From positions 1 through 64,000 of IMG/VR virus record IMGVR_UViG_3300025707_000003: DNA of 64,000 nt; one strand, given 5' to 3'. Within the stretch, counting starts at the first letter, position 1, and every line of letters begins with the position of its first letter. Positions 240-48,260 of the stretch are shown here, in pieces. Under the pieces are notes generated by a model that saw only the letters and a program-made list of their open reading frames with translations, did not search any database and had not been told where the DNA came from. The position numbers and the translations under genes are program-made. This DNA is from a virus (lineage: Duplodnaviria > Caudoviricetes).

Positions 240-511
240 GACTCAGGCCGTAGCTTCTTCAAACTCTCTATATGACGAGATTCCATAAGGGAGTCGTAGT
301 TTGTCTCTGTGTCGAACTTTTCTCGGTTCTCTAGCCAACCCCTTGCGATCTGGTCTAAAAGGCTAGGAGGGAGGCTTACAGTGACCCCATTACCGATGAT
401 CTGAACGAACCCTCCATGTTTATCTATTTGGAGGTAGGCATTCTCACCCTCAAACATCTCTTGGTAGATATGAAACTCATCACCATGTGTGATTGTAGAC
501 TTTGTACTCAT
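236..511 (-). CDS. hypothetical protein (91 aa)
   Basis: ORF track; its stop codon is the TAA inside the next promoter motif. Confidence 0.65.
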   Translation of the reverse strand: MSTKSTITHGDEFHIYQEMFEGENAYLQIDKHGGFVQIIGNGVTVSLPPSLLDQIARGWLENREKFDTETNYDSLMESRHIESLKKLRPES

Positions 512-523
512 GTGAAGTTCCTT

Positions 524-540
524 TTAATAGTTTATTTATC
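524..540 (+). promoter_or_regulatory. repeated promoter-like motif TTAATAG-N3-NTTTAT(A) (class B, probably late)
   Basis: Copies or variants at 524(+), 11063(-), 12212(-), 13698(+), 22797(-), 25637(+), 33856(-), 39164(-), 42711(-), 44121(-), 45560(-), 46169(-), 48993(-), 51212(-), 62610(-); they precede the sheath operon, fibre genes and leader-bearing genes. Confidence 0.75.
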
Positions 541-589
541 TCTTCTCATAAGTGATCTCTTTAACCTTAACTACAATGGAGAAACCATT

Positions 590-874
590 ATGAGAAGATC
601 AGCTTCAGAAATCATTAATGAGCTTGAGATGAGGGTTGCTCGTCTTGAGAAGTCAGCAGGACAAAGGATTAACTATCTTGATAATGTTATGGAAGGACTC
701 GAAAGGTATAATAAAATAGAAATTCTTTCTGATTATAATACAAGAGATTTAGGCACTAAAGTCCATGCTCCACATCCGAATGATGTAAGAAGAGCGATTT
801 CAAGAAATAAAAAAATCATGGTTCACGCTGTGGACGGTAGGACAAGGTTTACATTAAACTGGCGTCATTTATAA
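590..874 (+). CDS. leader-family protein 1 (MRRSASEIINELEMRVARLEKSA + 71-aa payload)
   Basis: True start is the ATG at 590 (internal Met of ORF 416..874) after ATGGAGA RBS; N-terminus and UTR shared with five other genes. Confidence 0.8.
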   Translation: MRRSASEIINELEMRVARLEKSAGQRINYLDNVMEGLERYNKIEILSDYNTRDLGTKVHAPHPNDVRRAISRNKKIMVHAVDGRTRFTLNWRHL

Positions 875-950
875 TGGACAGGGCAGGATTTGAACCTGCG
901 TACTCCTAAGAGGTCAGATTTACAGTCTGATGTCTTAGGAGTACCTGTCC
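875..950 (-). tRNA. tRNA-Tyr(GTA)-like RNA lacking a D-arm
   Basis: Acceptor GGACAGG/CCTGTCC+A, anticodon arm TCAGA-CTGTAAA-TCTGA and T-arm GCAGG-TTCAAAT-CCTGC are all perfect; only 13 nt sit where the D-arm should be, and they pair with the variable region; no encoded CCA. Confidence 0.7.
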
Positions 951-1014
951 AAAGGGCTAGATTTCCTATCCCTATAGTAAGTTATGCCCCACGAAAACCA
1001 CAGGGCAATTTTCG

Positions 1015-1310
1015 GTCTGCTATGGTAAGCTCGCCCCCCTTAAACGAGTAAGGGTTGAATGAGTCTTAGGGTAGGGTAGGCTTAGACCCTCCAAGTGCAT
1101 ACTGCGATCAGCGTAGAGCCACAACACTGGCGTTATACCTAGTAATTTTAACGCCCTCTCTTTCAAGAGGGTGTTAGGAAGTATCAAAATTTGATTATCC
1201 CCGCTACGAAGAACATTCGTCATTTACGCCCCTCTAGTTTGCAGATTTCGACCGAGTAGTAAAAGAGGAACTTCTGTAAGACTAATGCCAGCCAAACTTT
1301 TACAGCAGAC
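1015..1310. ncRNA. candidate ~296-nt structured ncRNA
   Basis: Terminal helix 1015-1023/1302-1310, nested helix 1062-1068/1277-1283, internal hairpin 1149-1176; no credible CDS; lies between tRNA-like genes; orientation unresolved. Confidence 0.4.
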
Positions 1311-1333
1311 AAATGATCTTCGCCAATACAAAG

Positions 1334-1406
1334 TGTACCCGCTAGGACTCACACCTAGTTCTCTTGCCTACTATGACAAGGCTTTATTCGTTAAGCTACA
1401 TGGTAC
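1334..1406 (-). pseudogene. degenerate tRNA-like element
   Basis: Cloverleaf spacing with bulged acceptor GTACC(A)TG/CGGGTAC, D-stem GCTT/AAGC and stem CTTGTC/GGCAAG, but a 6-nt anticodon loop and non-canonical T-loop TGTGAGT. Confidence 0.45.
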
Positions 1407-1511
1407 ATAAGCGACCCTTACTAGAAATCTAGCGATAACCATACTGTGTCCATCAACCACGAAGAACACAATACAGGGTCTAGTTATCTCCCCAACCAAG
1501 AGGTTATAGGC

Positions 1512-1547
1512 TCACCTATTCTTTATAACAAGATAAAGAATAGGTGA
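1512..1547. repeat. perfect 15-bp inverted repeat
   Basis: TCACCTATTCTTTAT-aacaag-ATAAAGAATAGGTGA. Confidence 0.85.
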
Positions 1548-1805
1548 ACGAGAGGAATGAGCAGACTTCCTCAATGCCTTGTCCGCATCAGCGTAATGCC
1601 CTACTCCACCATTGTACATTTATGGGTTGCACCCCTCTTGGTTAGGTTATGTTGCGAACTCATAGTTCCCCAAGAGCTATTATCCTCTTTAACGGTGGCA
1701 ATAAGAGGCGTAAACAACCCCCAGACAAGACCAAAGCAAACGCTTATCTGTTTCTCCATTCTCCCTATGCGTCTGTTTGAAGAGTTCCTATAAAAGAACA
1801 GAAAA

Positions 1806-1897
1806 TGGTCGCTCAATCTGGAATCGAACCAGAATCCCACCTCGAAGAGACAAAACCCCTATAAAGAGAATCACTAGAGGAGAATACCAATTAAGCG
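1806..1897 (-). ncRNA. tRNA-like RNA with acceptor stem, T-arm and encoded CCA but no recognisable D or anticodon arm
   Basis: CGCTTAA/TTGAGCG acceptor, TCTGG-TTCGATT-CCAGA T-arm, A-CCA end; interior forms an irregular long stem. Confidence 0.55.
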
Positions 1898-1899
1898 AG

Positions 1900-1971
1900 C
1901 ACACCAAGTAGGATTTGAACCTACGACCTGCGGCTTAGAAGGCCGATGCTCTTCCACTGAGCTATTGGTGC
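1900..1971 (-). tRNA. tRNA-Arg(TCT)
   Basis: GCACCAA/TTGGTGT acceptor, TAGCTCAGTGGAAGAGCA D-arm, CT-TCT-AA loop, GTAGG-TTCAAAT-CCTAC T-arm; no encoded CCA. Confidence 0.92.
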
Positions 1972-2295
1972 TAAAAGCTCCGTTTTGCCCTACTTTACGG
2001 AACAACAAAGTGGAGACACCTATGAGAAAGGTGAAGGGCGAGTTATTATACAACGAATCTCCTCAAAATCTAAACTATTTAGACTTTGGTGCGTTACCTC
2101 GACCACCGCCACTAGGGCGACCAGTCGAAGATGGATAGTTAGGGTTTCCCATGACTATACTCCTATTTCAATGTTGTACTCTTAAGTGTGGTGGAGAAGT
2201 TCCTTAGCTTCTTAGGTCTAAGAGTTTGACCTACCTTGTTCTTTCTCAGTTCCTCACGATCAAGGGCTTTTGTGAGTTTACCGTCCTTGTGTTAG

Positions 2296-2355
2296 ACCCC
2301 CCTCTACCCATTCTTTCTTTCATCCAAGGCAAAATAAAAGAAAGTAGAGGGGGGT
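2296..2355. terminator. long hairpin directly downstream of tRNA-Arg(CCT); terminator or processing signal
   Basis: ACCCCCCTCTAC/GTAGAGGGGGGT 12-bp perfect stem plus inner TTTCTTTT/AAAAGAAA. Confidence 0.5.
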
Positions 2356-2357
2356 AA

Positions 2358-2429
2358 TACACTAGGTAGGGATCGAACCTACGACCTACACTTTAGGAAA
2401 GTGTTGCTCTTCCACTGAGCTACTAATGT
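2358..2429 (-). tRNA. tRNA-Arg(CCT)
   Basis: ACATTAG/CTAGTGT acceptor, same D-arm as the TCT tRNA, ACACT-TTCCTAA-AGTGT anticodon arm, GTAGG-TTCGATC-CCTAC T-arm. Confidence 0.92.
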
Positions 2430-2526
2430 AAAGTTAAGTTCATATCGAGATTTCAAAGATCTTTGAAGCGTTCAACAACACTCACAAAGGTATTATACAA
2501 AAAAGACCCTCAAAGGAACAACAAAA

Positions 2527-2796
2527 ATGGAAGAACTTATATATCTTGAACCACGATCAACATTCGACACGATGATTCTCGGAGTGGCAGAAGGAACTCC
2601 CAAACTCGTTTATGACCTAGACGCTATGATTTCTCACTGGGTTAAAGAGTTTCAAGACAAAGAAACCTCAGAAGAGGAAGCTCACACAATGGCTATTGAA
2701 TGGTTTGAGTTTAATGTACTCGGTGCATATTGGGGTGAGCATACACCTGTTTATGTCTCTAAGTCAGCCCTCGACCACATTGAAGACTGCCTCTAA
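2527..2796 (+). CDS. conserved phage hypothetical protein
   Basis: AAAGGA RBS; VYD...EEA..W.EFN..GAY.GE.TP pattern recalled from many phage small proteins. Confidence 0.75.
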   Translation: MEELIYLEPRSTFDTMILGVAEGTPKLVYDLDAMISHWVKEFQDKETSEEEAHTMAIEWFEFNVLGAYWGEHTPVYVSKSALDHIEDCL

Positions 2797-3063
2797 GCTC
2801 TCTAAGAACGAGCCTACATCAAGCCCATCGTAGTCAACTAAGTTCATAGAGATGTTATTTGTGAGCTTGGTCTGGCTTTGAGTCATACTACTCCTAAGTA
2901 TCGGTGTCTTTCGGTCAGTAGAACCAAAGATCTGGAGAAAGACACCTTCAAACTTTTTGTGTTCTCGATTCGCAAAACTAAAGTCGATGTACCCTATATG
3001 GTTCTCAAATGTAGGGTCGATCTTCACTCTGCTCTTGACTACTAAAAGACTCGGCTTTCCCAT
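2764..3063 (-). CDS. hypothetical protein (99 aa)
   Basis: Start overlaps the ligase stop codon (TAATG coupling). Confidence 0.55.
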   Translation of the reverse strand: MGKPSLLVVKSRVKIDPTFENHIGYIDFSFANREHKKFEGVFLQIFGSTDRKTPILRSSMTQSQTKLTNNISMNLVDYDGLDVGSFLESLEAVFNVVEG

Positions 3064-4022
3064 TAGATCACTCCAAACTCAAAGGTACATTCCTCTGGTA
3101 GCTTATCTTCACGCCAACGCTCAAGCACAGGGTGTCGCAACGCTCCTGTAGGGTATTGACCGTAAGCCTTGATCTCAGCTACTTGACCTACATATTGCTC
3201 CATGTCTTCACGAGGTCCTGTCTCTCCAAGAGATCCAACGATACGGAGCTTTCCTTTTGAGTCATAGAAACCATAGTTTAATCCCACATATCCCTTGACC
3301 CAAGGATCAGTGTGAAGCCCCTCTGGGTAGAGTTTTCCATCTTGACGATAGACCTCTCCTGGTCGTACTCGCCACTCACTAGGCTTTGCATTTGCGTCAA
3401 CGATCACCACATCGTGGGTGTCAGTGAACTTATGCTTCACCCATGCACTACGACTATTAGCCTTGTATGGTTCAGACACCTTCTTGAGCATGATACCCTC
3501 ATGCCCCCGATCAGAAGCGATCTCCATGAGGTTTTCAGTTGTCCACTCGTTCATGTAGTAGAGCTGACTCAAACTGATATGCTCCATGTTATTGCACTGG
3601 ATTACAGACTCAAGGATAGCCCTACGCTTATCCCAAGATAGATCACCGACATACTGACCCTCATGGTAGAGGATGTCGAAAGCCACGAACCCAAGCGATG
3701 TGGGGTCTTCTGCTCTGAGATTAGAGACTCGATCAGAACCTTCTGCTCCTTGCTTCGGCAAAATCTCCCCATCGAGTAAAGTGCCTACTGGACACTCGTT
3801 TTGGATATGATCCATACGAGCGATGTCCTTGCCTATACGACTCCAAGCACAGGTTTGACCAACGAGCATACGGTGTCCGTCTAGCTTCATCTCGCCCACC
3901 CATTGACTTGACCCTGCGATCTTCTCAAGGACATTCTTGCCCTTGTGAGAGCCTTTGGCGAGTTGAGGTCGGAGGAAGTCATAAGTTCCACATGATGATG
4001 TCTTTTCGATTTTCTTTGGCAT
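3063..4022 (-). CDS. lig: ATP-dependent DNA ligase
   Basis: Motif I EMKLDGHR (KxDG), LDGEI, FDIL, EGIMLK, WVKHK; C-terminal OB domain with LRHP. Confidence 0.92.
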   Translation of the reverse strand: MPKKIEKTSSCGTYDFLRPQLAKGSHKGKNVLEKIAGSSQWVGEMKLDGHRMLVGQTCAWSRIGKDIARMDHIQNECPVGTLLDGEILPKQGAEGSDRVSNLRAEDPTSLGFVAFDILYHEGQYVGDLSWDKRRAILESVIQCNNMEHISLSQLYYMNEWTTENLMEIASDRGHEGIMLKKVSEPYKANSRSAWVKHKFTDTHDVVIVDANAKPSEWRVRPGEVYRQDGKLYPEGLHTDPWVKGYVGLNYGFYDSKGKLRIVGSLGETGPREDMEQYVGQVAEIKAYGQYPTGALRHPVLERWREDKLPEECTFEFGVI

Positions 4023-4042
4023 TGTTTTCTCCTTTCAAGAGA

Positions 4043-4357
4043 CTAAGCGTCATAACACCAATCACCGATGGTGATCAGTTGGATTATCCCATTACAATAA
4101 GAGGGGGTGAGGTTAAATGGGGTGTCGCTCTCTGCTTTAGGGAGAGCTCTTGCTATTTCTTTTACTCCAAAGATGAGACAATGAGGATCATACCCAACAA
4201 TAAAATCTCCATTATCCCAAGATACGAGTATCTCACCCCCATCAACCTCTGTTTGATAACCACCAAAATTGATGGTGTTTAAGGCATTGATGTCAATGCT
4301 ATTAATAGCATTTTTTATTGTTTCAAAGATGGCCTCTGCTTTTGATAACTCTTTCAT
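4043..4357 (-). CDS. hypothetical protein
   Basis: Class A promoter plus CTCTTGAAAGGAGA RBS element. Confidence 0.75.
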   Translation of the reverse strand: MKELSKAEAIFETIKNAINSIDINALNTINFGGYQTEVDGGEILVSWDNGDFIVGYDPHCLIFGVKEIARALPKAESDTPFNLTPSYCNGIIQLITIGDWCYDA

Positions 4358-22372: not shown

Positions 22373-22750
22373 CTATCTCTTGAATCTAGCTGGTGTCCAT
22401 GCGTTATGTGATCTTCGACCTCTGCGAGATGCTTGCTTGGTGTAGATCATTCCAAGACCATCGGTGAAGTCACCCTTTTCAAACTTCACATCATGCTTTT
22501 GAGCGAGAGCTTTGACCTGTTTCTCGACCTTTTTATTGTCCATTGATGACATGAGGAAAGTAATAACCCCATCTTCAAAATCAATGTCCTCAATACCAAA
22601 GGTGTCCTCAAGATCACGCCTAATCTGACGAACATTTACATTACCTGCTAAGATGATGTGTCCTGCAACTTTGCGTGTTGCTGAGGTACGCTCAAGACGA
22701 GCAATGCGTCTTTCAAGGTTGTTAATGATTTGTGATGCTGATCTTCTCAT
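22373..22750 (-). CDS. leader-family protein 2
   Basis: MRRSASQIINNLERRIARLERTSA; class B promoter and shared TAAGTGATCTC UTR. Confidence 0.8.
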   Translation of the reverse strand: MRRSASQIINNLERRIARLERTSATRKVAGHIILAGNVNVRQIRRDLEDTFGIEDIDFEDGVITFLMSSMDNKKVEKQVKALAQKHDVKFEKGDFTDGLGMIYTKQASRRGRRSHNAWTPARFKR

Positions 22751-23089
22751 AGGAGTTCTCCATTTAAGTTAAGGTTAGAGATCACTTAAGATCATTTATA
22801 AATGATCTATTAAAAACATTGAGGGTCATGTCCTCTCTGCATAGCGAGGGAGGTCAAATCCAAAAGACCCCTTTATCGAACCAGCACTAAGACCTAATCG
22901 GTTAAAAATCAAACCCAAAGACGATGTGTGGGTCAGAGATTTTAGGGTAATAATCAGTGAGAAAATGGCTGTTTTATGATCTGTGTGTGGGTCAAAGAGA
23001 TGGAGCATAGTCTAAACCTAACTTTTTTTTGCTAGGGGATACTGTCAATGGTATATACCCAACCTTAAATAAACCAAAGGATCTTAAAA

Positions 23090-42763: not shown

Positions 42764-43636
42764 TTAAATCTCTTCAATGACATAGTTAAGTTTAGTTCTA
42801 AGTCGCTTACCACTAGATGCGAGATATTGAAACGACTCCTCAGAAGCACCAAGTTGACGAATAATACTTTTTCGCTCATCTTCATCTAGGTATCCGAACG
42901 CTTCAAGAACTTGCTTCTCACTCCACCCTCTCTCCTCATAAAGATACTCATAAGGGTACTGTTTAAGAGCTTTCTCGATCTCTTCTTCTGCTTCTCCCAT
43001 AAGATCATTGCGGGCAGACTCTGGTAACTCGTTCAACATATTATTATAGTCAAATACCATTACTTCTGCACGATCAGAATAAAGACGATTGATCTCTCCA
43101 TTAACTTCTGGATCCATCCTCGCTTCCCAATAAGCCAGCTCCTCTTCATATGACTCTTTCTTTTCGGTCAAATCTGCCCTCTCAAGGATTTCGTCATCGT
43201 CTAAGTCTTCGATTTGTTCCTCCGCCCATTGAGTAGCCCACATTCCAATATCACCGTAAGGTAGACTCGCAGTGGTTACAATGATGTCTCTTGCCCAAGG
43301 CACTCTTACAACCACTTCTTTAACAGAATGGTTATCGAGCATCTCATCCATGATCTCTTCATTCATCTGTGTCTTAACATCATCATCCTCATAGATGATG
43401 TAATCACTCCAATCAGAAGAAACCAAGATCACATCTTTATGACCTTGAAAGTATTCCCAGACTTGACCGTTTCTTCTCTCTTTAAGATCAGACCTAGTTT
43501 GGGCTTTAGTTTCTCGACTTTCAACTAGAACTTCTAAAGCCCAAGTTATCCATTGAGGTTCTTTCTTAGATTGCTTTTCAAGTTGGGCAATCCTATTCTC
43601 AAGTTTATTAATGATTTCTGATGCTGATTTTCTCAT
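42764..43636 (-). CDS. leader-family protein 3, strongly acidic payload
   Basis: MRKSASEIINKLENRIAQLEKQS; AAATGGAGA RBS. Confidence 0.8.
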   Translation of the reverse strand: MRKSASEIINKLENRIAQLEKQSKKEPQWITWALEVLVESRETKAQTRSDLKERRNGQVWEYFQGHKDVILVSSDWSDYIIYEDDDVKTQMNEEIMDEMLDNHSVKEVVVRVPWARDIIVTTASLPYGDIGMWATQWAEEQIEDLDDDEILERADLTEKKESYEEELAYWEARMDPEVNGEINRLYSDRAEVMVFDYNNMLNELPESARNDLMGEAEEEIEKALKQYPYEYLYEERGWSEKQVLEAFGYLDEDERKSIIRQLGASEESFQYLASSGKRLRTKLNYVIEEI

Positions 43637-43663
43637 GATTTTTCTCCATTTGATTAAAATAAA

Positions 43664-44071
43664 TTAGTACGCACCCTTGATGCTTTTGATCTCTGATTTG
43701 ACTTCTTCATGTAGGTCATACCATCGATCAGAGATGGAAGCATAAAAGCGATCCTCTCTCATTGAAAATGAAGGCATACTCTCTAATGCTTGCTCCAGCT
43801 CTTGCATCGCTTCAAGAACTTTGACTGCACTCTCTCTTACAGATAATTGACGAGCAGTCTTGTTTCCCTTGTACTCAGGAGTTTTACGATACTCTTTAAC
43901 GAGTCTTTCGTATTCTTCATTTTGAGACTTGGTGAGATTATCATCGTCTTCAAGTTTTTGCAGGTCATCAAGTCTCGACCTGTCTTTTTTAGACATAGTG
44001 TGTGCTGATATTTCAAGTTGTGCGATTCTTGATTCAAGATCCCTGAGTACTTCACTTGCTGATTTTCTCAT
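43664..44071 (-). CDS. leader-family protein 4
   Basis: MRKSASEVLRDLESRIAQLEISA from internal Met of ORF 43664..44200; class B-like promoter at 44121. Confidence 0.8.
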   Translation of the reverse strand: MRKSASEVLRDLESRIAQLEISAHTMSKKDRSRLDDLQKLEDDDNLTKSQNEEYERLVKEYRKTPEYKGNKTARQLSVRESAVKVLEAMQELEQALESMPSFSMREDRFYASISDRWYDLHEEVKSEIKSIKGAY

Positions 44072-44148
44072 AAGAGTCCTCCATTTTTGGCTAGGGTTGC
44101 TGAGATTATATAAGTATAATAATAGATAAACTATCAAAGGATTAGCAT

Positions 44149-45123: not shown

Positions 45124-45650
45124 GATTAAAGACTTTTAAGATAATCTAAAATGTCTTCATCTCTTCTTAATCCGTTTGGTTGGCCTTGGTCATGGTAGAT
45201 AATCTCGATTAAGTCGGTTGCGATAAGCACCTGGTCTTTTCTCGGTCTTTCCATAGACATACCAACTACATAACTATGATCAATGTCATCACTAGTTGAG
45301 AAGTGGTTAAAGATTTCGCCTTTTGACATGAAATAAGTTTTCATTCTGCGACCTCCACCATCTTGACCGTACTTATCTTTAAATGGTGCGAAGAGGGTAA
45401 ATTGCCCTTGCCCAAGAGCTTCCCTAGCTGGGTGCTTTCGGCCTGCTTGTCTTTCAAGTCTTGCAATCCTTGACTCAAGATTACGAATAACTTCGGTTGC
45501 TGATCTTCTCATGGTTTTCTCCATTTTGTTTGTGGTTAAAGAGATCACTTATGAGAACCTATAAAAGAACTATTAAAACAAGAAATAGATAAAAGTAGGA
45601 ATAAGGGGTGGGGATGGCTATCTCTTATCTTGAACGAGTCGAGGACTAAG
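45088..45650 (+). repeat. 37-bp direct repeat of the sbcD 3' end (45088-45124 and 45614-45650) flanking leader cassette 5
   Basis: ATGGCTATCTCTTATCTTGAAC[A/G]AGTCGAGGA[T/C]TAAG, 35/37 identical. Confidence 0.9.
45126..45512 (-). CDS. leader-family protein 5
   Basis: MRRSATEVIRNLESRIARLERQA; class B promoter and shared UTR. Confidence 0.8.
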   Translation of the reverse strand: MRRSATEVIRNLESRIARLERQAGRKHPAREALGQGQFTLFAPFKDKYGQDGGGRRMKTYFMSKGEIFNHFSTSDDIDHSYVVGMSMERPRKDQVLIATDLIEIIYHDQGQPNGLRRDEDILDYLKSL

Positions 45651-45653
45651 TTA

Positions 45654-46121
45654 TTAGGCTTTTGTGATGTCATAGTCTGCACGAGCCTTTAGATTGCTCT
45701 TTAGGATGCTCTGTAGTTTATTAGCACAAGAGTTATAACTTTGGCTCTCACATCCAGTAGCAACAAATACTTGATAGAGACAACTCCAACAACCACCTTG
45801 AAGATTGTCTGATCCGTCATCAAGACCCCAACTGATTTGTAGTTGACCCCCCCCTATATCAACATATGCGTATAGGCTTGTTCCTCTCTCAATGTCTCCT
45901 TCCTCGATTCCTTCTTCAAGACTGGATTTAGCAGACTCAATATCACTGTTAACTTCTGCAATAATCTCTGCAAAAGTCATGTCGGTGTTTCGATCTCTTG
46001 GGTGACCTGTGTACCAACCTGTACTGATCTTTAGACCAGAATGTTTGTTGGCAGTACGACCTTCAAGACGAGCAATCCTCATCTGAAGGTTGCGAATAAT
46101 TTCTGATGCTGATCTTTTCAT
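45654..46121 (-). CDS. leader-family protein 6
   Basis: MKRSASEIIRNLQMRIARLEGRTA; class B promoter and shared UTR. Confidence 0.8.
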   Translation of the reverse strand: MKRSASEIIRNLQMRIARLEGRTANKHSGLKISTGWYTGHPRDRNTDMTFAEIIAEVNSDIESAKSSLEEGIEEGDIERGTSLYAYVDIGGGQLQISWGLDDGSDNLQGGCWSCLYQVFVATGCESQSYNSCANKLQSILKSNLKARADYDITKA

Positions 46122-46181
46122 GGTTTTTCTCCATTTTGTTAAGGTTAATGAGATCACTTAAGATCAATTATAAATAAACTA

Positions 46182-48260
46182 TTAAAATCTATACCTCAAC
46201 CTAGAGTACCTAAGACCACTAGACGAGTTTCCTACACAAATCGCTACTGCGTCCTTATCTCCAATCAGCACTGCCTTATCCTTCGCTCTCGTGACAGCGG
46301 TGTAGAGCAAAGAGCGTTGTAAGAGGTTTGAACTATGTTCGGTGGTCATAGGCATAATGATGGTGTCGTACTCAAGACCTTGGCTCTTATGAACAGTCGT
46401 AGCATAAGCGAGTCTCAATAGCTTCCTTACTTGATCAGAAGGGATGTCTACGATTTGATCTTTTACACCTTTGATGAGTACGCTCACGCTTGTTTTATCA
46501 ATCGACCTAATACGACCTATATCACCATTATAAACATTGAGGTCATACTCATTCTTGGTGATCATAACTCGATCACCTACTCGGATTGAATCTTTACCTA
46601 CCCGAATGAAAGCACCTCCTATATCGGGGTTCAAAGCAGATCTAAGCTCTCTGTTAAGATTAGTAACACCCACTTTGCCATGATGAGTAGGACTAACCAC
46701 ATGGAAATCTATTTGATCCATGTGAAGCTCTTTACACCGTCCCACAATTTCATCGAGAATGTCTTGTGAGGTATAACGATCAATGAACTGATAATCTTTA
46801 TTGTGTTGTGGCACTTCACCTGCATGGATCTTGTGAGCGGCAATTGTCACCCCACTCCCCTCTCCTTGCCTAAAGATTTCTGTAAGGTGTTCTCTCGGTA
46901 CTGCGTTCGACTCAATAAGTTCCGAAAGAACAAACCCTGCACCAACAGGTGGAAGCTGTGCTATATCACCTACCATGATGACTCGACACTTGGGTGAGAT
47001 GCCTTTCATCACACGCCACATGAGGTGTAAGTCAATCATAGAGGATTCGTCTATAATGACAACTGACTCTGGTCGAGGATTCTGAGGATTATGTCTCCAT
47101 AGTTCTCGACTTGGGTCATTGCTATTGCCAATACCTTTAACTCCACTTTCTTCATCTTTCTTAACCCCTTCATAATCAGACTTGTCCTTCTTATCCTCTG
47201 AGGGCAATCCTGCACCGAACGCTCTATGGACTGTGAAAGCGTCCATATTGGTTAATGCACTAGCTCGTTTAGCGGCTATTCCTGTGGGGGCGATGAGTAA
47301 GATACTTTCTTTACGATCACGCAAGATTTTACAGAGCGTATTAAGGATAGTCGTCTTACCTGTTCCTGGTAATCCTGTCACGATTGAAAAAGGCTCTATA
47401 AGACCCTGTTGGATTGCTTTGAGTTGTGTATTGGTCAATGGGTAGCGTGAATATGCTTTAATGTCATCAATACTTATTGATTGAAGCATACTATTCACTC
47501 GGAGAGGAGATTTAATTTCTTCGGCAACAGCTACCTCCATTTTATGATAAGAAGGCAAATAAAGGGCAATAGAGGAGTCTTGTGATATCTTATCTACCAC
47601 AATGCGAGTCGGCTTCGCCTCTTTCATCGACTTGATGACTTGACCTATCTCTTTCGGGTTCGTCAAGCCTGTGAGGATAGCAGTATCTTTGAATACCGTA
47701 TTTGTGTCTAAATAACAATGACCTTGATACACACCTTGAAGCATAGACCAAAAGATAGAGGCTTCAACTCGACCTTCATTTTCTGGGTCAAAGTCCTTTT
47801 TAAGAAGCGTCTTAGCAATTTCATCAGCACCTTGAAAAGAGACACCTTTATAAACCAACGACCAAGGGTTTTTAGCAATAGAACTCGGAGATATTTGAAC
47901 ATCATTCCAAATAGAGTTTATGATGTTCAAAGGCACTCCTGCTTCAGACAGACTTGAGATAACCTCGATGGACTCTTGCATAAGAGGGTCAGACCAATCT
48001 GCCCAACTGTAGAGAGCCGACCCTTTAAGATACTTAGGGTTAATCGGATTACGAACTATATCAAGGTTCTTCTTCCCATTACGCTTGTCGAGGACTTCCT
48101 TACCTTGAAAGGTAAATACTTGACCTTTTGAAACAGGGCCTGCAATCTTACCTTTGACCACGATAGGCTTTGTATCGGCCTCAGAAGCTACGATACACCT
48201 TAGAATATAATAAGGTGGGTTGGCAAAAATCTGCCCCAACACTTTGGCAACATAAAACAC
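46182..48260 (-). CDS. recD2: RecD2-like SF1 helicase
   Basis: TGLPGTGKTT, APTGIAA, IDESSM, GDIAQLPPVG, YATTVHKSQGLEY, LYTAVTRAK. Confidence 0.9.
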   Translation of the reverse strand: MFYVAKVLGQIFANPPYYILRCIVASEADTKPIVVKGKIAGPVSKGQVFTFQGKEVLDKRNGKKNLDIVRNPINPKYLKGSALYSWADWSDPLMQESIEVISSLSEAGVPLNIINSIWNDVQISPSSIAKNPWSLVYKGVSFQGADEIAKTLLKKDFDPENEGRVEASIFWSMLQGVYQGHCYLDTNTVFKDTAILTGLTNPKEIGQVIKSMKEAKPTRIVVDKISQDSSIALYLPSYHKMEVAVAEEIKSPLRVNSMLQSISIDDIKAYSRYPLTNTQLKAIQQGLIEPFSIVTGLPGTGKTTILNTLCKILRDRKESILLIAPTGIAAKRASALTNMDAFTVHRAFGAGLPSEDKKDKSDYEGVKKDEESGVKGIGNSNDPSRELWRHNPQNPRPESVVIIDESSMIDLHLMWRVMKGISPKCRVIMVGDIAQLPPVGAGFVLSELIESNAVPREHLTEIFRQGEGSGVTIAAHKIHAGEVPQHNKDYQFIDRYTSQDILDEIVGRCKELHMDQIDFHVVSPTHHGKVGVTNLNRELRSALNPDIGGAFIRVGKDSIRVGDRVMITKNEYDLNVYNGDIGRIRSIDKTSVSVLIKGVKDQIVDIPSDQVRKLLRLAYATTVHKSQGLEYDTIIMPMTTEHSSNLLQRSLLYTAVTRAKDKAVLIGDKDAVAICVGNSSSGLRYSRLRYRF

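What the first reader, a model, noticed from the sequence alone, without database searches (positions are those of the whole stretch)
875..950. tRNA-Tyr(GTA)-like RNA whose D-arm is replaced by a perfect 11-bp helix with the variable region
Seen (minus strand): GGACAGG TACTCCTAAGA CA TCAGA-CTGTAAA-TCTGA CC TCTTAGGAGTA C GCAGG-TTCAAAT-CCTGC CCTGTCC A. The acceptor, anticodon and T arms are flawless, but there is no D-arm. Positions 8-18 are the exact reverse complement of positions 40-50, giving an elongated anticodon stalk. Established: D-armless tRNAs are known mainly from mitochondria, and phage tRNAs can counter anticodon nucleases. Inference: the intact arms suggest selection rather than decay. 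It could be a decoy or inhibitor for an anticodon nuclease, synthetase or RelA-type sensor. Alternatively it is a quasi-palindrome template-switch product.
Basis: partly seen in the sequence, partly recalled or inferred. Interest (0 to 1): 0.7.

Follow-up and report, generated by a model that had tools for sequence, protein, structure and literature searches.

The report
Phage tRNA-Tyr gene remodelled by template switch
A huge marine phage carries a tyrosine tRNA gene whose D-arm was overwritten in one replication slip by a copy of its own variable arm; the perfect helix is a mutational scar that almost certainly stops decoding, and nothing yet shows a new function.

Summary
Window 875-950 (-) is a 76-nt tRNA-Tyr(GTA)-like gene. 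Its acceptor, anticodon and T arms are intact, it has no D-arm, and a perfect 11-12 bp helix joins the D-region to the variable region.

It is a derived allele. At the same place in the same tRNA cluster, 19 related phage contigs (about 70-87% nt identity) carry a normal 83-nt tRNA-Tyr. That tRNA matches this gene at 70 of its 76 positions. The only difference is that 13 D-arm bases were replaced by 6 bases. Those 6 are the exact reverse complement of the adjoining variable-arm bases, and existing complementarity flanks them on both sides. This is the signature of a single quasipalindrome template-switch mutation, so the perfect helix needs no selection to explain it.

The allele is not an artefact. 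It is fixed in two close haplotypes seen in about 18 independent assemblies.

The helix locks up the variable arm, removes the elbow and lengthens the anticodon stalk by about 8-9 layers, so decoding is very unlikely.

The haplotypes differ only by a swap of the two internal-loop dinucleotides, with the anticodon loop kept. That is a weak hint of constraint. Divergence tests had no power, and expression could not be checked.

Most likely this is a tolerated relic. A co-opted tRNA-derived RNA is not excluded.

The parts
875..950 (-). Whole 76-nt tRNA-Tyr(GTA)-derived gene ('Tyr*'). RNA position p corresponds to window coordinate 951-p. No CCA is encoded.
937..942 (-). The six templated bases (RNA 9-14, ACTCCT). 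They replace 13 ancestral D-arm bases.
   Evidence: Comparison with the normal tRNA-Tyr of 19 related contigs
902..907 (-). Template of the switch (RNA 44-49, AGGAGT) in the variable arm. It is the exact reverse complement of the six new bases.
933..944 (-). 5' strand of the new 12-bp helix (RNA 7-18). RNA 15-18 (AAGA) and G7-T8 were already complementary to the other strand in the ancestor.
900..911 (-). 3' strand of the new helix (RNA 40-51). This is the former long variable arm, which in relatives forms its own 3-bp hairpin.
931..932 (-). 5' dinucleotide of the 2x2 internal loop (RNA 19-20). It is CA here (ancestral) and GG in haplotype B.
912..913 (-). 3' dinucleotide of the internal loop (RNA 38-39). 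It is CC here (ancestral) and TG in haplotype B.
914..930 (-). Anticodon stem-loop (5 bp plus a 7-nt loop; anticodon GTA at 921-923). It is unchanged from the normal relatives.
883..899 (-). T arm (5 bp, loop TTCAAAT), unchanged.
954..972 (-). Hairpin just upstream of the tRNA 5' end, followed by TTT. Relatives keep a hairpin here with different stem sequences.
   Evidence: 5' flanks printed
1899..1971 (-). tRNA-Arg(TCT), the upstream neighbour in the same cluster.
2357..2430 (-). tRNA-Arg(CCT), the first tRNA of the cluster.

Best explanation
Tyr* is the phage's own class II tRNA-Tyr(GTA) gene after a single quasipalindrome template-switch mutation.

How it arose. In the ancestral gene, the 3' half of the D-stem (AAGA) could already pair with the start of the variable arm (TCTT), across a 2x2 mismatch next to the anticodon stem. 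During replication, the nascent antisense strand folded back on this imperfect hairpin. It copied six more bases from its own variable-arm complement. It then realigned at the G7-T8 / A-C microhomology, skipping 13 D-arm bases.

What results. The RNA has an intact acceptor/T-arm minihelix. Its anticodon stem-loop sits at the tip of an 18-19-layer stalk. It has no D-loop/T-loop elbow and no free variable arm.

What it can and cannot do (inferred). It can no longer be matched by TyrRS or fit the ribosome, so it is a non-decoding relic. It is probably still transcribed and end-processed with the cluster. The phage tolerates it because the tRNA set in this group is variable.

Shown: the derived state, the template-switch anatomy, fixation in two haplotypes, and the predicted fold.

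Inferred: loss of decoding, lack of a new function, and continued transcription.
For: (1) Nineteen related contigs carry a normal 83-nt tRNA-Tyr in the same cluster position. It is identical to Tyr* at all 70 shared positions.

(2) The only change is 13 nt replaced by 6 nt. The 6 nt are the exact in-register reverse complement of the adjacent variable-arm bases (chance about 4^-6). Pre-existing pairing sits at both switch points. The ancestral sequence itself folds with the AAGA/TCTT pairing in its minimum-energy structure (L007).

(3) The allele occurs only in the clade A+B. These are 91-98% identical to each other, while all normal-Tyr relatives are about 70-87% identical to the window.

(4) Relatives actively maintain what Tyr* lost. 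There is a compensatory T-A to C-G change in the D-stem. The 3-bp variable-arm stem is kept with four different loops.

(5) The helix forms with probability at least 0.97. A D-armless cloverleaf with a free variable arm is 16-20 kcal/mol worse than the minimum-energy fold.

(6) There are no compensatory changes in the 12-bp helix.

(7) The tRNA repertoire is fluid. This lineage lacks the tRNA-Asn, and the tRNA-Gly, that various relatives have between Arg and Tyr.

(8) Template-switch mutations are documented to create perfect RNA stems and to invert loops in one event (PMC8794818).
Against: The allele is fixed in abundant phage populations. The haplotype A ligase is indexed in 77 collection blocks and the haplotype B ligase in 25.

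The allele survived the split of two haplotypes whose ligase differs at 18.7% of 4-fold sites.

The only A/B difference within the gene is a swap of the internal-loop dinucleotides that leaves the anticodon loop in its original orientation. The simplest route to that state, two successive inversions, passes through an inverted loop. Its restoration could reflect selection on the loop.

Neither single-step perfect-helix form (CA/TG or GG/CC) was seen.

The complete relative G001 has only one tRNA-Tyr gene. The phage has therefore probably given up its only tRNA-Tyr, which is a real cost if that tRNA matters.
Confidence: 0.65

Rival explanations
1. Co-opted tRNA-derived RNA. The template switch created it, but the RNA is now kept because it does something. 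One possibility is that it displays a tRNA-Tyr anticodon loop on a rigid stalk as a decoy or competitive substrate for a tRNA-Tyr-directed host nuclease. Another is that it binds a tRNA-handling protein through its intact acceptor/T minihelix.
For: It is fixed in two haplotypes across about 18 assemblies. The arm swap between A and B keeps the loop CTGTAAA and keeps an internal loop rather than giving a perfect 18-bp helix. Phage tRNA-Tyr is a known counter to a tRNA-Tyr-degrading defence, retron-Eco7 PtuAB (PMC11555353).
Against: There is no covariation in the helix. Only two near-identical haplotypes exist. The low A/B divergence extends over the whole 1-kb block, including spacers that are not conserved in more distant relatives, so it reflects recent shared ancestry rather than constraint. 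Haplotype A is essentially clonal. A decoy that cannot decode is a poorer counter-defence than the functional tRNA it replaced. No expression data could be obtained.
Confidence: 0.2
2. Still a working D-armless tRNA-Tyr, which decodes UAY codons as nematode mitochondrial D-armless tRNAs do.
For: The acceptor stem, A73, the GUA anticodon loop and the T arm are intact. Rfam scores it above the tRNA threshold. ARAGORN in mitochondrial mode calls mtRNA-Tyr.
Against: The cloverleaf-like fold needed for this is 16-20 kcal/mol less stable than the stalk fold. The variable arm, which sets class II tRNA-Tyr geometry in bacteria, is buried. The anticodon-to-junction stack is about 18-19 layers rather than about 10, and there is no elbow. 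By established tRNA and ribosome geometry, this cannot span the decoding and peptidyl-transferase centres. Mitochondrial D-armless tRNAs have short flexible connectors and dedicated factors (PMC7609411).
Confidence: 0.04
3. Sequencing or assembly artefact: a hairpin-induced chimera.
For: Palindromic sequences can provoke polymerase template-switch artefacts in library preparation.
Against: The same sequence occurs in at least 11 assemblies for haplotype A and 7 for haplotype B. These come from several projects and assemblers, and the two haplotypes carry linked flanking differences.
Confidence: 0.01

Closest known systems
Quasipalindrome / template-switch mutations (TSMs), e.g. 'Template switching in DNA replication can create and maintain RNA hairpins' (PMC8794818)
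   Same: A multi-base replacement that is the exact reverse complement of a neighbouring segment. It is bounded by pre-existing complementarity, extends an imperfect hairpin into a perfect stem in one event, and is followed by inversion-type changes.
   Different: This event lies in a phage tRNA gene rather than rRNA or microRNA. The ancestral state is directly observed in many outgroups. The event destroys a functional arm (13 nt replaced by 6 nt) rather than repairing a stem.
D-armless mitochondrial tRNAs (nematode and other metazoan mt-tRNA-Ser and others; review PMC7609411)
   Same: No D-arm, with the acceptor, anticodon and T arms retained. ARAGORN's mitochondrial mode accepts it.
   Different: The mitochondrial forms have a short unpaired connector and a short variable region. 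They stay flexible enough to keep the anticodon-to-CCA distance, and they co-evolved with special factors. Here the connector is locked in a 12-bp helix with a long variable arm, which lengthens the anticodon stalk.
Phage-encoded tRNAs that offset tRNA-targeting defences (T5 tRNA-Tyr against retron-Eco7 PtuAB; tRNA-Lys against PrrC; PMC11555353)
   Same: A phage tRNA-Tyr gene in a tRNA-rich region of a large lytic-type phage. The normal orthologues in relatives may serve this or a codon-supply role.
   Different: Those are functional, chargeable tRNAs acting by supply. Tyr* has lost the tRNA fold. No defence system or nuclease is linked to it here.
tRNA pseudogenes and tRNA gene fragments in prokaryotic and phage genomes (e.g. 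PMC9897764)
   Same: A tRNA-derived sequence that passes a covariance-model threshold yet lacks a canonical element.
   Different: Those are usually truncations or att-site fragments. Here the gene is full length, in its original cluster position, with a precisely templated internal replacement.

Membership tests
Canonical bacterial-type class II tRNA-Tyr (Rfam RF00005) | 7-bp acceptor stem with discriminator A73 | tested here: met
   RNA 1-7 / 69-75 plus A76
Canonical bacterial-type class II tRNA-Tyr (Rfam RF00005) | 5-bp anticodon stem and a 7-nt loop with U33, G34-U35-A36 and purine 37 | tested here: met
Canonical bacterial-type class II tRNA-Tyr (Rfam RF00005) | T arm with a GTTCRAnYC loop | tested here: met
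Canonical bacterial-type class II tRNA-Tyr (Rfam RF00005) | D-arm (3-4 bp stem, loop with G18 G19) | tested here: not met
   The D-arm columns are absent from the Rfam alignment. ARAGORN in standard mode finds nothing. Thirteen nt of the ancestral arm are gone.
Canonical bacterial-type class II tRNA-Tyr (Rfam RF00005) | Free long variable arm forming its own hairpin | tested here: not met
   The variable arm is paired to RNA 7-18 with probability at least 0.97. The alternative with a free arm is 16-20 kcal/mol worse.
Canonical bacterial-type class II tRNA-Tyr (Rfam RF00005) | Aminoacylation by TyrRS and decoding | not testable with these tools
   Needs biochemistry.
Template-switch (quasipalindrome) mutation product | The new bases are the exact reverse complement of a nearby segment, in register | tested here: met
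   RNA 9-14 against 44-49
Template-switch (quasipalindrome) mutation product | Switch points lie in pre-existing complementarity or microhomology | tested here: met
   AAGA/TCTT plus the anticodon stem on the inner side, and GT/AC on the outer side. All are present in the normal relatives.
Template-switch (quasipalindrome) mutation product | The ancestral state is known from outgroups and the change is confined to one clade | tested here: met
   Nineteen contigs are normal; only clade A+B is derived.
D-armless mitochondrial-type tRNA | Short unpaired connector in place of the D-arm, and a short variable region | tested here: not met
   The 13-nt connector is base-paired and the variable region is 14 nt. 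ARAGORN -mt does call it.
Functional phage tRNA-like decoy or regulatory RNA | Conservation beyond the neutral expectation, or covariation in the new helix | tested here: inconclusive
   There are no helix substitutions at all. The block-wide A/B divergence is only 0-6% per 100 nt, whereas ligase 4-fold sites differ by 18.7%. Haplotype A is clonal.
Functional phage tRNA-like decoy or regulatory RNA | Expressed, processed, stable RNA | not testable with these tools

The most novel reading that the evidence does not exclude
A one-step template switch turned a phage tRNA-Tyr into a new stable RNA that the phage now keeps. It would have an acceptor/T minihelix (processed, CCA-tailed) carrying the tRNA-Tyr anticodon loop on an 18-bp stalk with a maintained internal loop. 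It would act as a decoy or sensor-blocker for a tRNA-Tyr-directed host nuclease or another tRNA-binding factor. The retention of the loop orientation through the arm swap between haplotypes would be the footprint of that selection.
Probability: 0.15. Interest if true: 0.7.

Novelty: new member of a known kind. Interest (0 to 1): 0.3.

Why it matters
This is an unusually clean natural example of a template-switch mutation. The ancestor is directly observable, and one event builds a perfect 12-bp RNA helix and abolishes a tRNA fold. It cautions against reading 'flawless arms plus a perfect helix' as evidence of selection.

It also shows that an abundant lineage of huge marine phages has given up what is probably its only tRNA-Tyr. 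That bears on how dispensable individual phage tRNAs are. If the RNA proved to be expressed and retained for a reason, it would show how a new tRNA-derived RNA can arise in a single step.

Tried and rejected
- Known phages: the GenBank phage collection gave no near match, and distant hits matched only the two tRNA-Arg genes.
- No whole genome is held for the window.
- Other isomers (inverted loop, GG/CC, CA/TG): an IMG/VR scan with the loop and junction left free found only haplotype B. The single metagenome scan fixed the canonical loop, so inverted-loop isomers there would have been missed.
- More divergent D-armless relatives, sought through the neighbouring ligase: none were found. The nearest other lineages (P0045, P0053) have a normal Tyr, and P0052's contig (L078) ends before the Tyr position. 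More distant ones (61-66% ligase identity) have no tRNA cluster beside the ligase.
- Purifying-selection test from A/B divergence: rejected as uninformative, because divergence is mosaic and the tRNA block is young.
- Single-event routes from A to B: one template switch cannot give both dinucleotide changes with the loop unchanged (reasoned).
- L082, a contig with the B-type ligase, diverges completely just after tRNA-Arg(TCT) and lacks Tyr*. It may be a real variant or a chimera at a tRNA, so it was not used as evidence.
- A sigma-70-like match at 848-875 (+), antisense to Tyr*, is not conserved in relatives' trailers and was treated as chance.

Full report
**Observation**

- a 7-bp acceptor stem;
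- a 13-nt connector;
- a 5-bp anticodon stem with loop CTGTAAA (anticodon GTA);
- a 14-nt variable region;
- a 5-bp T arm with loop TTCAAAT;
- the acceptor 3' strand and A73, with no encoded CCA.

RNA 8-18 is the perfect complement of RNA 40-50, and G7/C51 can extend the helix to 12 bp. The repeat finder reports arms 900-918 / 926-944, 17 of 19 complementary, around a 7-nt spacer.

Rfam's tRNA model scores 44.1 bits against a threshold of 29, with the D-arm columns missing. ARAGORN finds only the two tRNA-Arg genes in the window. It calls this element only in mitochondrial mode.

The fold is -41.0 kcal/mol, z = -8, with helix pair probabilities of 0.97-1.0.

**What the relatives show**

The window belongs to a huge marine phage. 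Related contigs reach 310-376 kb and few PHROG families match.

I ran pattern scans of IMG/VR and of the metagenome collection. I also looked up contigs through the neighbouring ATP-dependent ligase (window 3063-4022). Together these gave three classes.

1. Haplotype A is identical to the window. It occurs in L034 and L062-L070.
2. Haplotype B has the same D-armless gene. The internal-loop dinucleotides are GG/TG instead of CA/CC. It occurs in seven distinct assemblies: L001, L002, L048, L081, L084, L085 and L087.
3. Nineteen distinct contigs carry a normal 83-nt tRNA-Tyr that ARAGORN calls.

The cluster order in relatives is Arg(CCT), Arg(TCT), [a roughly 97-nt tRNA-like element], [Gly], [Asn], Tyr, Glu, Lys ... 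Leu, Met. The Tyr position is therefore syntenic.

At the nucleotide level, B is 91-98% identical to the window over this region. All normal-Tyr relatives are about 70-87% identical. The D-armless state is therefore derived and confined to clade A+B.

**Anatomy of the change**

The normal gene and Tyr* are identical at all 70 shared positions. The only difference lies between T8 and the AAGA that ends the D-stem. There, 13 ancestral bases are replaced by six (ACTCCT, window 937-942). These six are the reverse complement of AGGAGT (window 902-907), the bases that follow TCTT in the variable arm.

The ancestor already had AAGA/TCTT complementarity next to the anticodon stem, across a 2x2 mismatch. 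ViennaRNA pairs these in the minimum-energy fold of the normal tRNA (L007). The ancestor also had GT/AC complementarity at the outer end.

An exact, in-register, six-base complement has a chance probability of about 1 in 4096. This is the textbook signature of a quasipalindrome template switch:
- the nascent antisense strand folds back on the imperfect hairpin;
- it copies its own strand for six or seven bases;
- it realigns on the original template.

Template-switch mutations of this kind are documented to create and extend perfect RNA stems and to invert loops in single events (PMC8794818). The perfect helix is therefore explained by copying and carries no evidence of selection.

**Consequences for the RNA**

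The relatives actively maintain what was lost. Their D-stem shows a compensatory T-A to C-G change. Their variable arm keeps a 3-bp stem with four different tetraloops.

In Tyr* the variable arm is consumed by the new helix. The D-armless cloverleaf with a free variable arm is 16-20 kcal/mol less stable.

The resulting RNA has three features:
- an intact acceptor/T minihelix;
- no D-loop/T-loop elbow;
- an anticodon loop at the tip of a stack of about 18-19 layers (5 bp, a 2x2 loop, then 11-12 bp), compared with about 10 layers in a tRNA.

From established tRNA geometry (inference), such a molecule cannot place its anticodon and its CCA end as TyrRS, EF-Tu and the ribosome require. The minihelix should still allow RNase P cleavage and CCA addition (inference, not tested).

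**Haplotype B**

Within the gene, A and B differ only at four bases. The 5' dinucleotide changes from CA to GG, and the 3' dinucleotide from CC to TG. GG is the complement of A's CC, and TG is the complement of A's CA. The arms have been swapped while the loop has not.

A matches the normal tRNA at these positions, so A is ancestral.

No single template switch yields B. The shortest route is an in-place inversion of the 21 nt between the long arms, followed by a re-inversion of the 7-nt loop. Both event types are described in PMC8794818.

Neither one-step perfect form (CA/TG or GG/CC, predicted at -48.7 and -50.9 kcal/mol) was found. Retention of the canonical loop and of an internal loop is the one observation that hints at constraint. 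With only two haplotypes it is weak.

**Tests for selection**

Ligase 4-fold degenerate sites differ by 18.7% between A and B. However, divergence is strongly mosaic. The block at window 900-1899, which contains Tyr*, differs by only 0-6% per 100 nt. The block includes spacers that do not align with more distant relatives, and these differ by only about 2% (4 of 222 positions) between A and B.

The block is therefore young or recently exchanged. At its roughly 2% divergence, about two changes are expected in 76 nt, and four bases in one or two events are observed. Haplotype A is essentially clonal over 8 kb in eleven assemblies. There is no power to show or exclude purifying selection, and there is no covariation in the helix.

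**Context**

The complete relative G001 (375,691 bp) has all nine tRNAs in this one cluster and a single tRNA-Tyr. The A+B clade has therefore probably lost its only decoding tRNA-Tyr. This could not be checked on a full A genome.

The lineage also lacks the tRNA-Asn and tRNA-Gly that various relatives carry, so the tRNA set is fluid.

Phage tRNA-Tyr can counter a tRNA-Tyr-degrading defence (PMC11555353). Earlier notes of this scan report RNA-end healing enzymes in the same genome. This makes a tRNA-directed arms race plausible as background, but nothing links Tyr* to it.

**Verdict**

| Reading | Estimated odds |
|---|---|
| Non-decoding relic that is tolerated and probably still transcribed | about 0.65 |
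| Co-opted tRNA-derived RNA | about 0.2 |
| Still-functional D-armless tRNA | about 0.04 |
| Artefact | about 0.01 |

This is a new instance of known phenomena: a template-switch mutation and a tRNA pseudogene or tRNA-derived element. It is of moderate-to-low interest unless expression data reveal a stable, processed RNA.

Noticed in passing
window 1806-1897 (-); L007:6080-6179, L005 (- strand, after tRNA-Arg TCT), L018, L044, L072:6106-6205, L078:3278-3378: A 92-103-nt tRNA-like element sits directly after tRNA-Arg(TCT) and is conserved across the phage group. It has a 9-bp acceptor-type stem with covarying sequences, a perfect T arm and an encoded CCA. ARAGORN labels some copies 'tRNA-Pyl (cta)'. 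Its interior is variable. Unlike Tyr*, it is ancient in the group and not a recent template-switch product.
   Followed up: partly
L076:7267-7338, L072:6980-7051, L073:8102-8168: Weak Rfam tRNA matches (30-36 bits) lie in relatives between tRNA-Asn and tRNA-Tyr, or after Tyr. They suggest further degenerate tRNA-like elements in the cluster.
   Followed up: no
window 950-1900: About 950 nt between Tyr* and tRNA-Arg(TCT) have no convincing ORF. Parts are 72-80% conserved with distant relatives, and the stretch is nearly identical between haplotypes A and B. At window 1329-1332, A and B differ by a clustered 4-nt replacement (CTTT/AGGA on the minus strand).
   Followed up: partly
window 528-658, 22692-22815, 43562-43650, 44003-44134, 45444-45578, 46062-46187: A repeated element of about 130 nt is shared within the window and with related contigs. 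It probably corresponds to the promoter/leader cassettes noted earlier by this scan.
   Followed up: no
window 300-4100 vs L050: Divergence between haplotypes A and B is strongly mosaic, from 0% to over 30% per 100 nt. There are a roughly 230-nt indel just downstream of Tyr* (inside the ORF at 416-874) and a roughly 800-nt insertion in B near window 2400-2500. This indicates frequent recombination.
   Followed up: partly
L082:6455-7957: A contig with a B-type ligase is 99% identical to L081 up to the 3' end of tRNA-Arg(TCT). It then continues into 1.5 kb unrelated to anything else fetched, with no tRNA-like element or Tyr*. It is either a recombinant at the tRNA or an assembly chimera.
   Followed up: partly
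window 848-875 (+): A near-consensus sigma-70-like promoter match (TTTACA, 16-nt spacer, TATAAT; 11 of 12) points antisense into Tyr*. It is not conserved in relatives' trailers.
   Followed up: no
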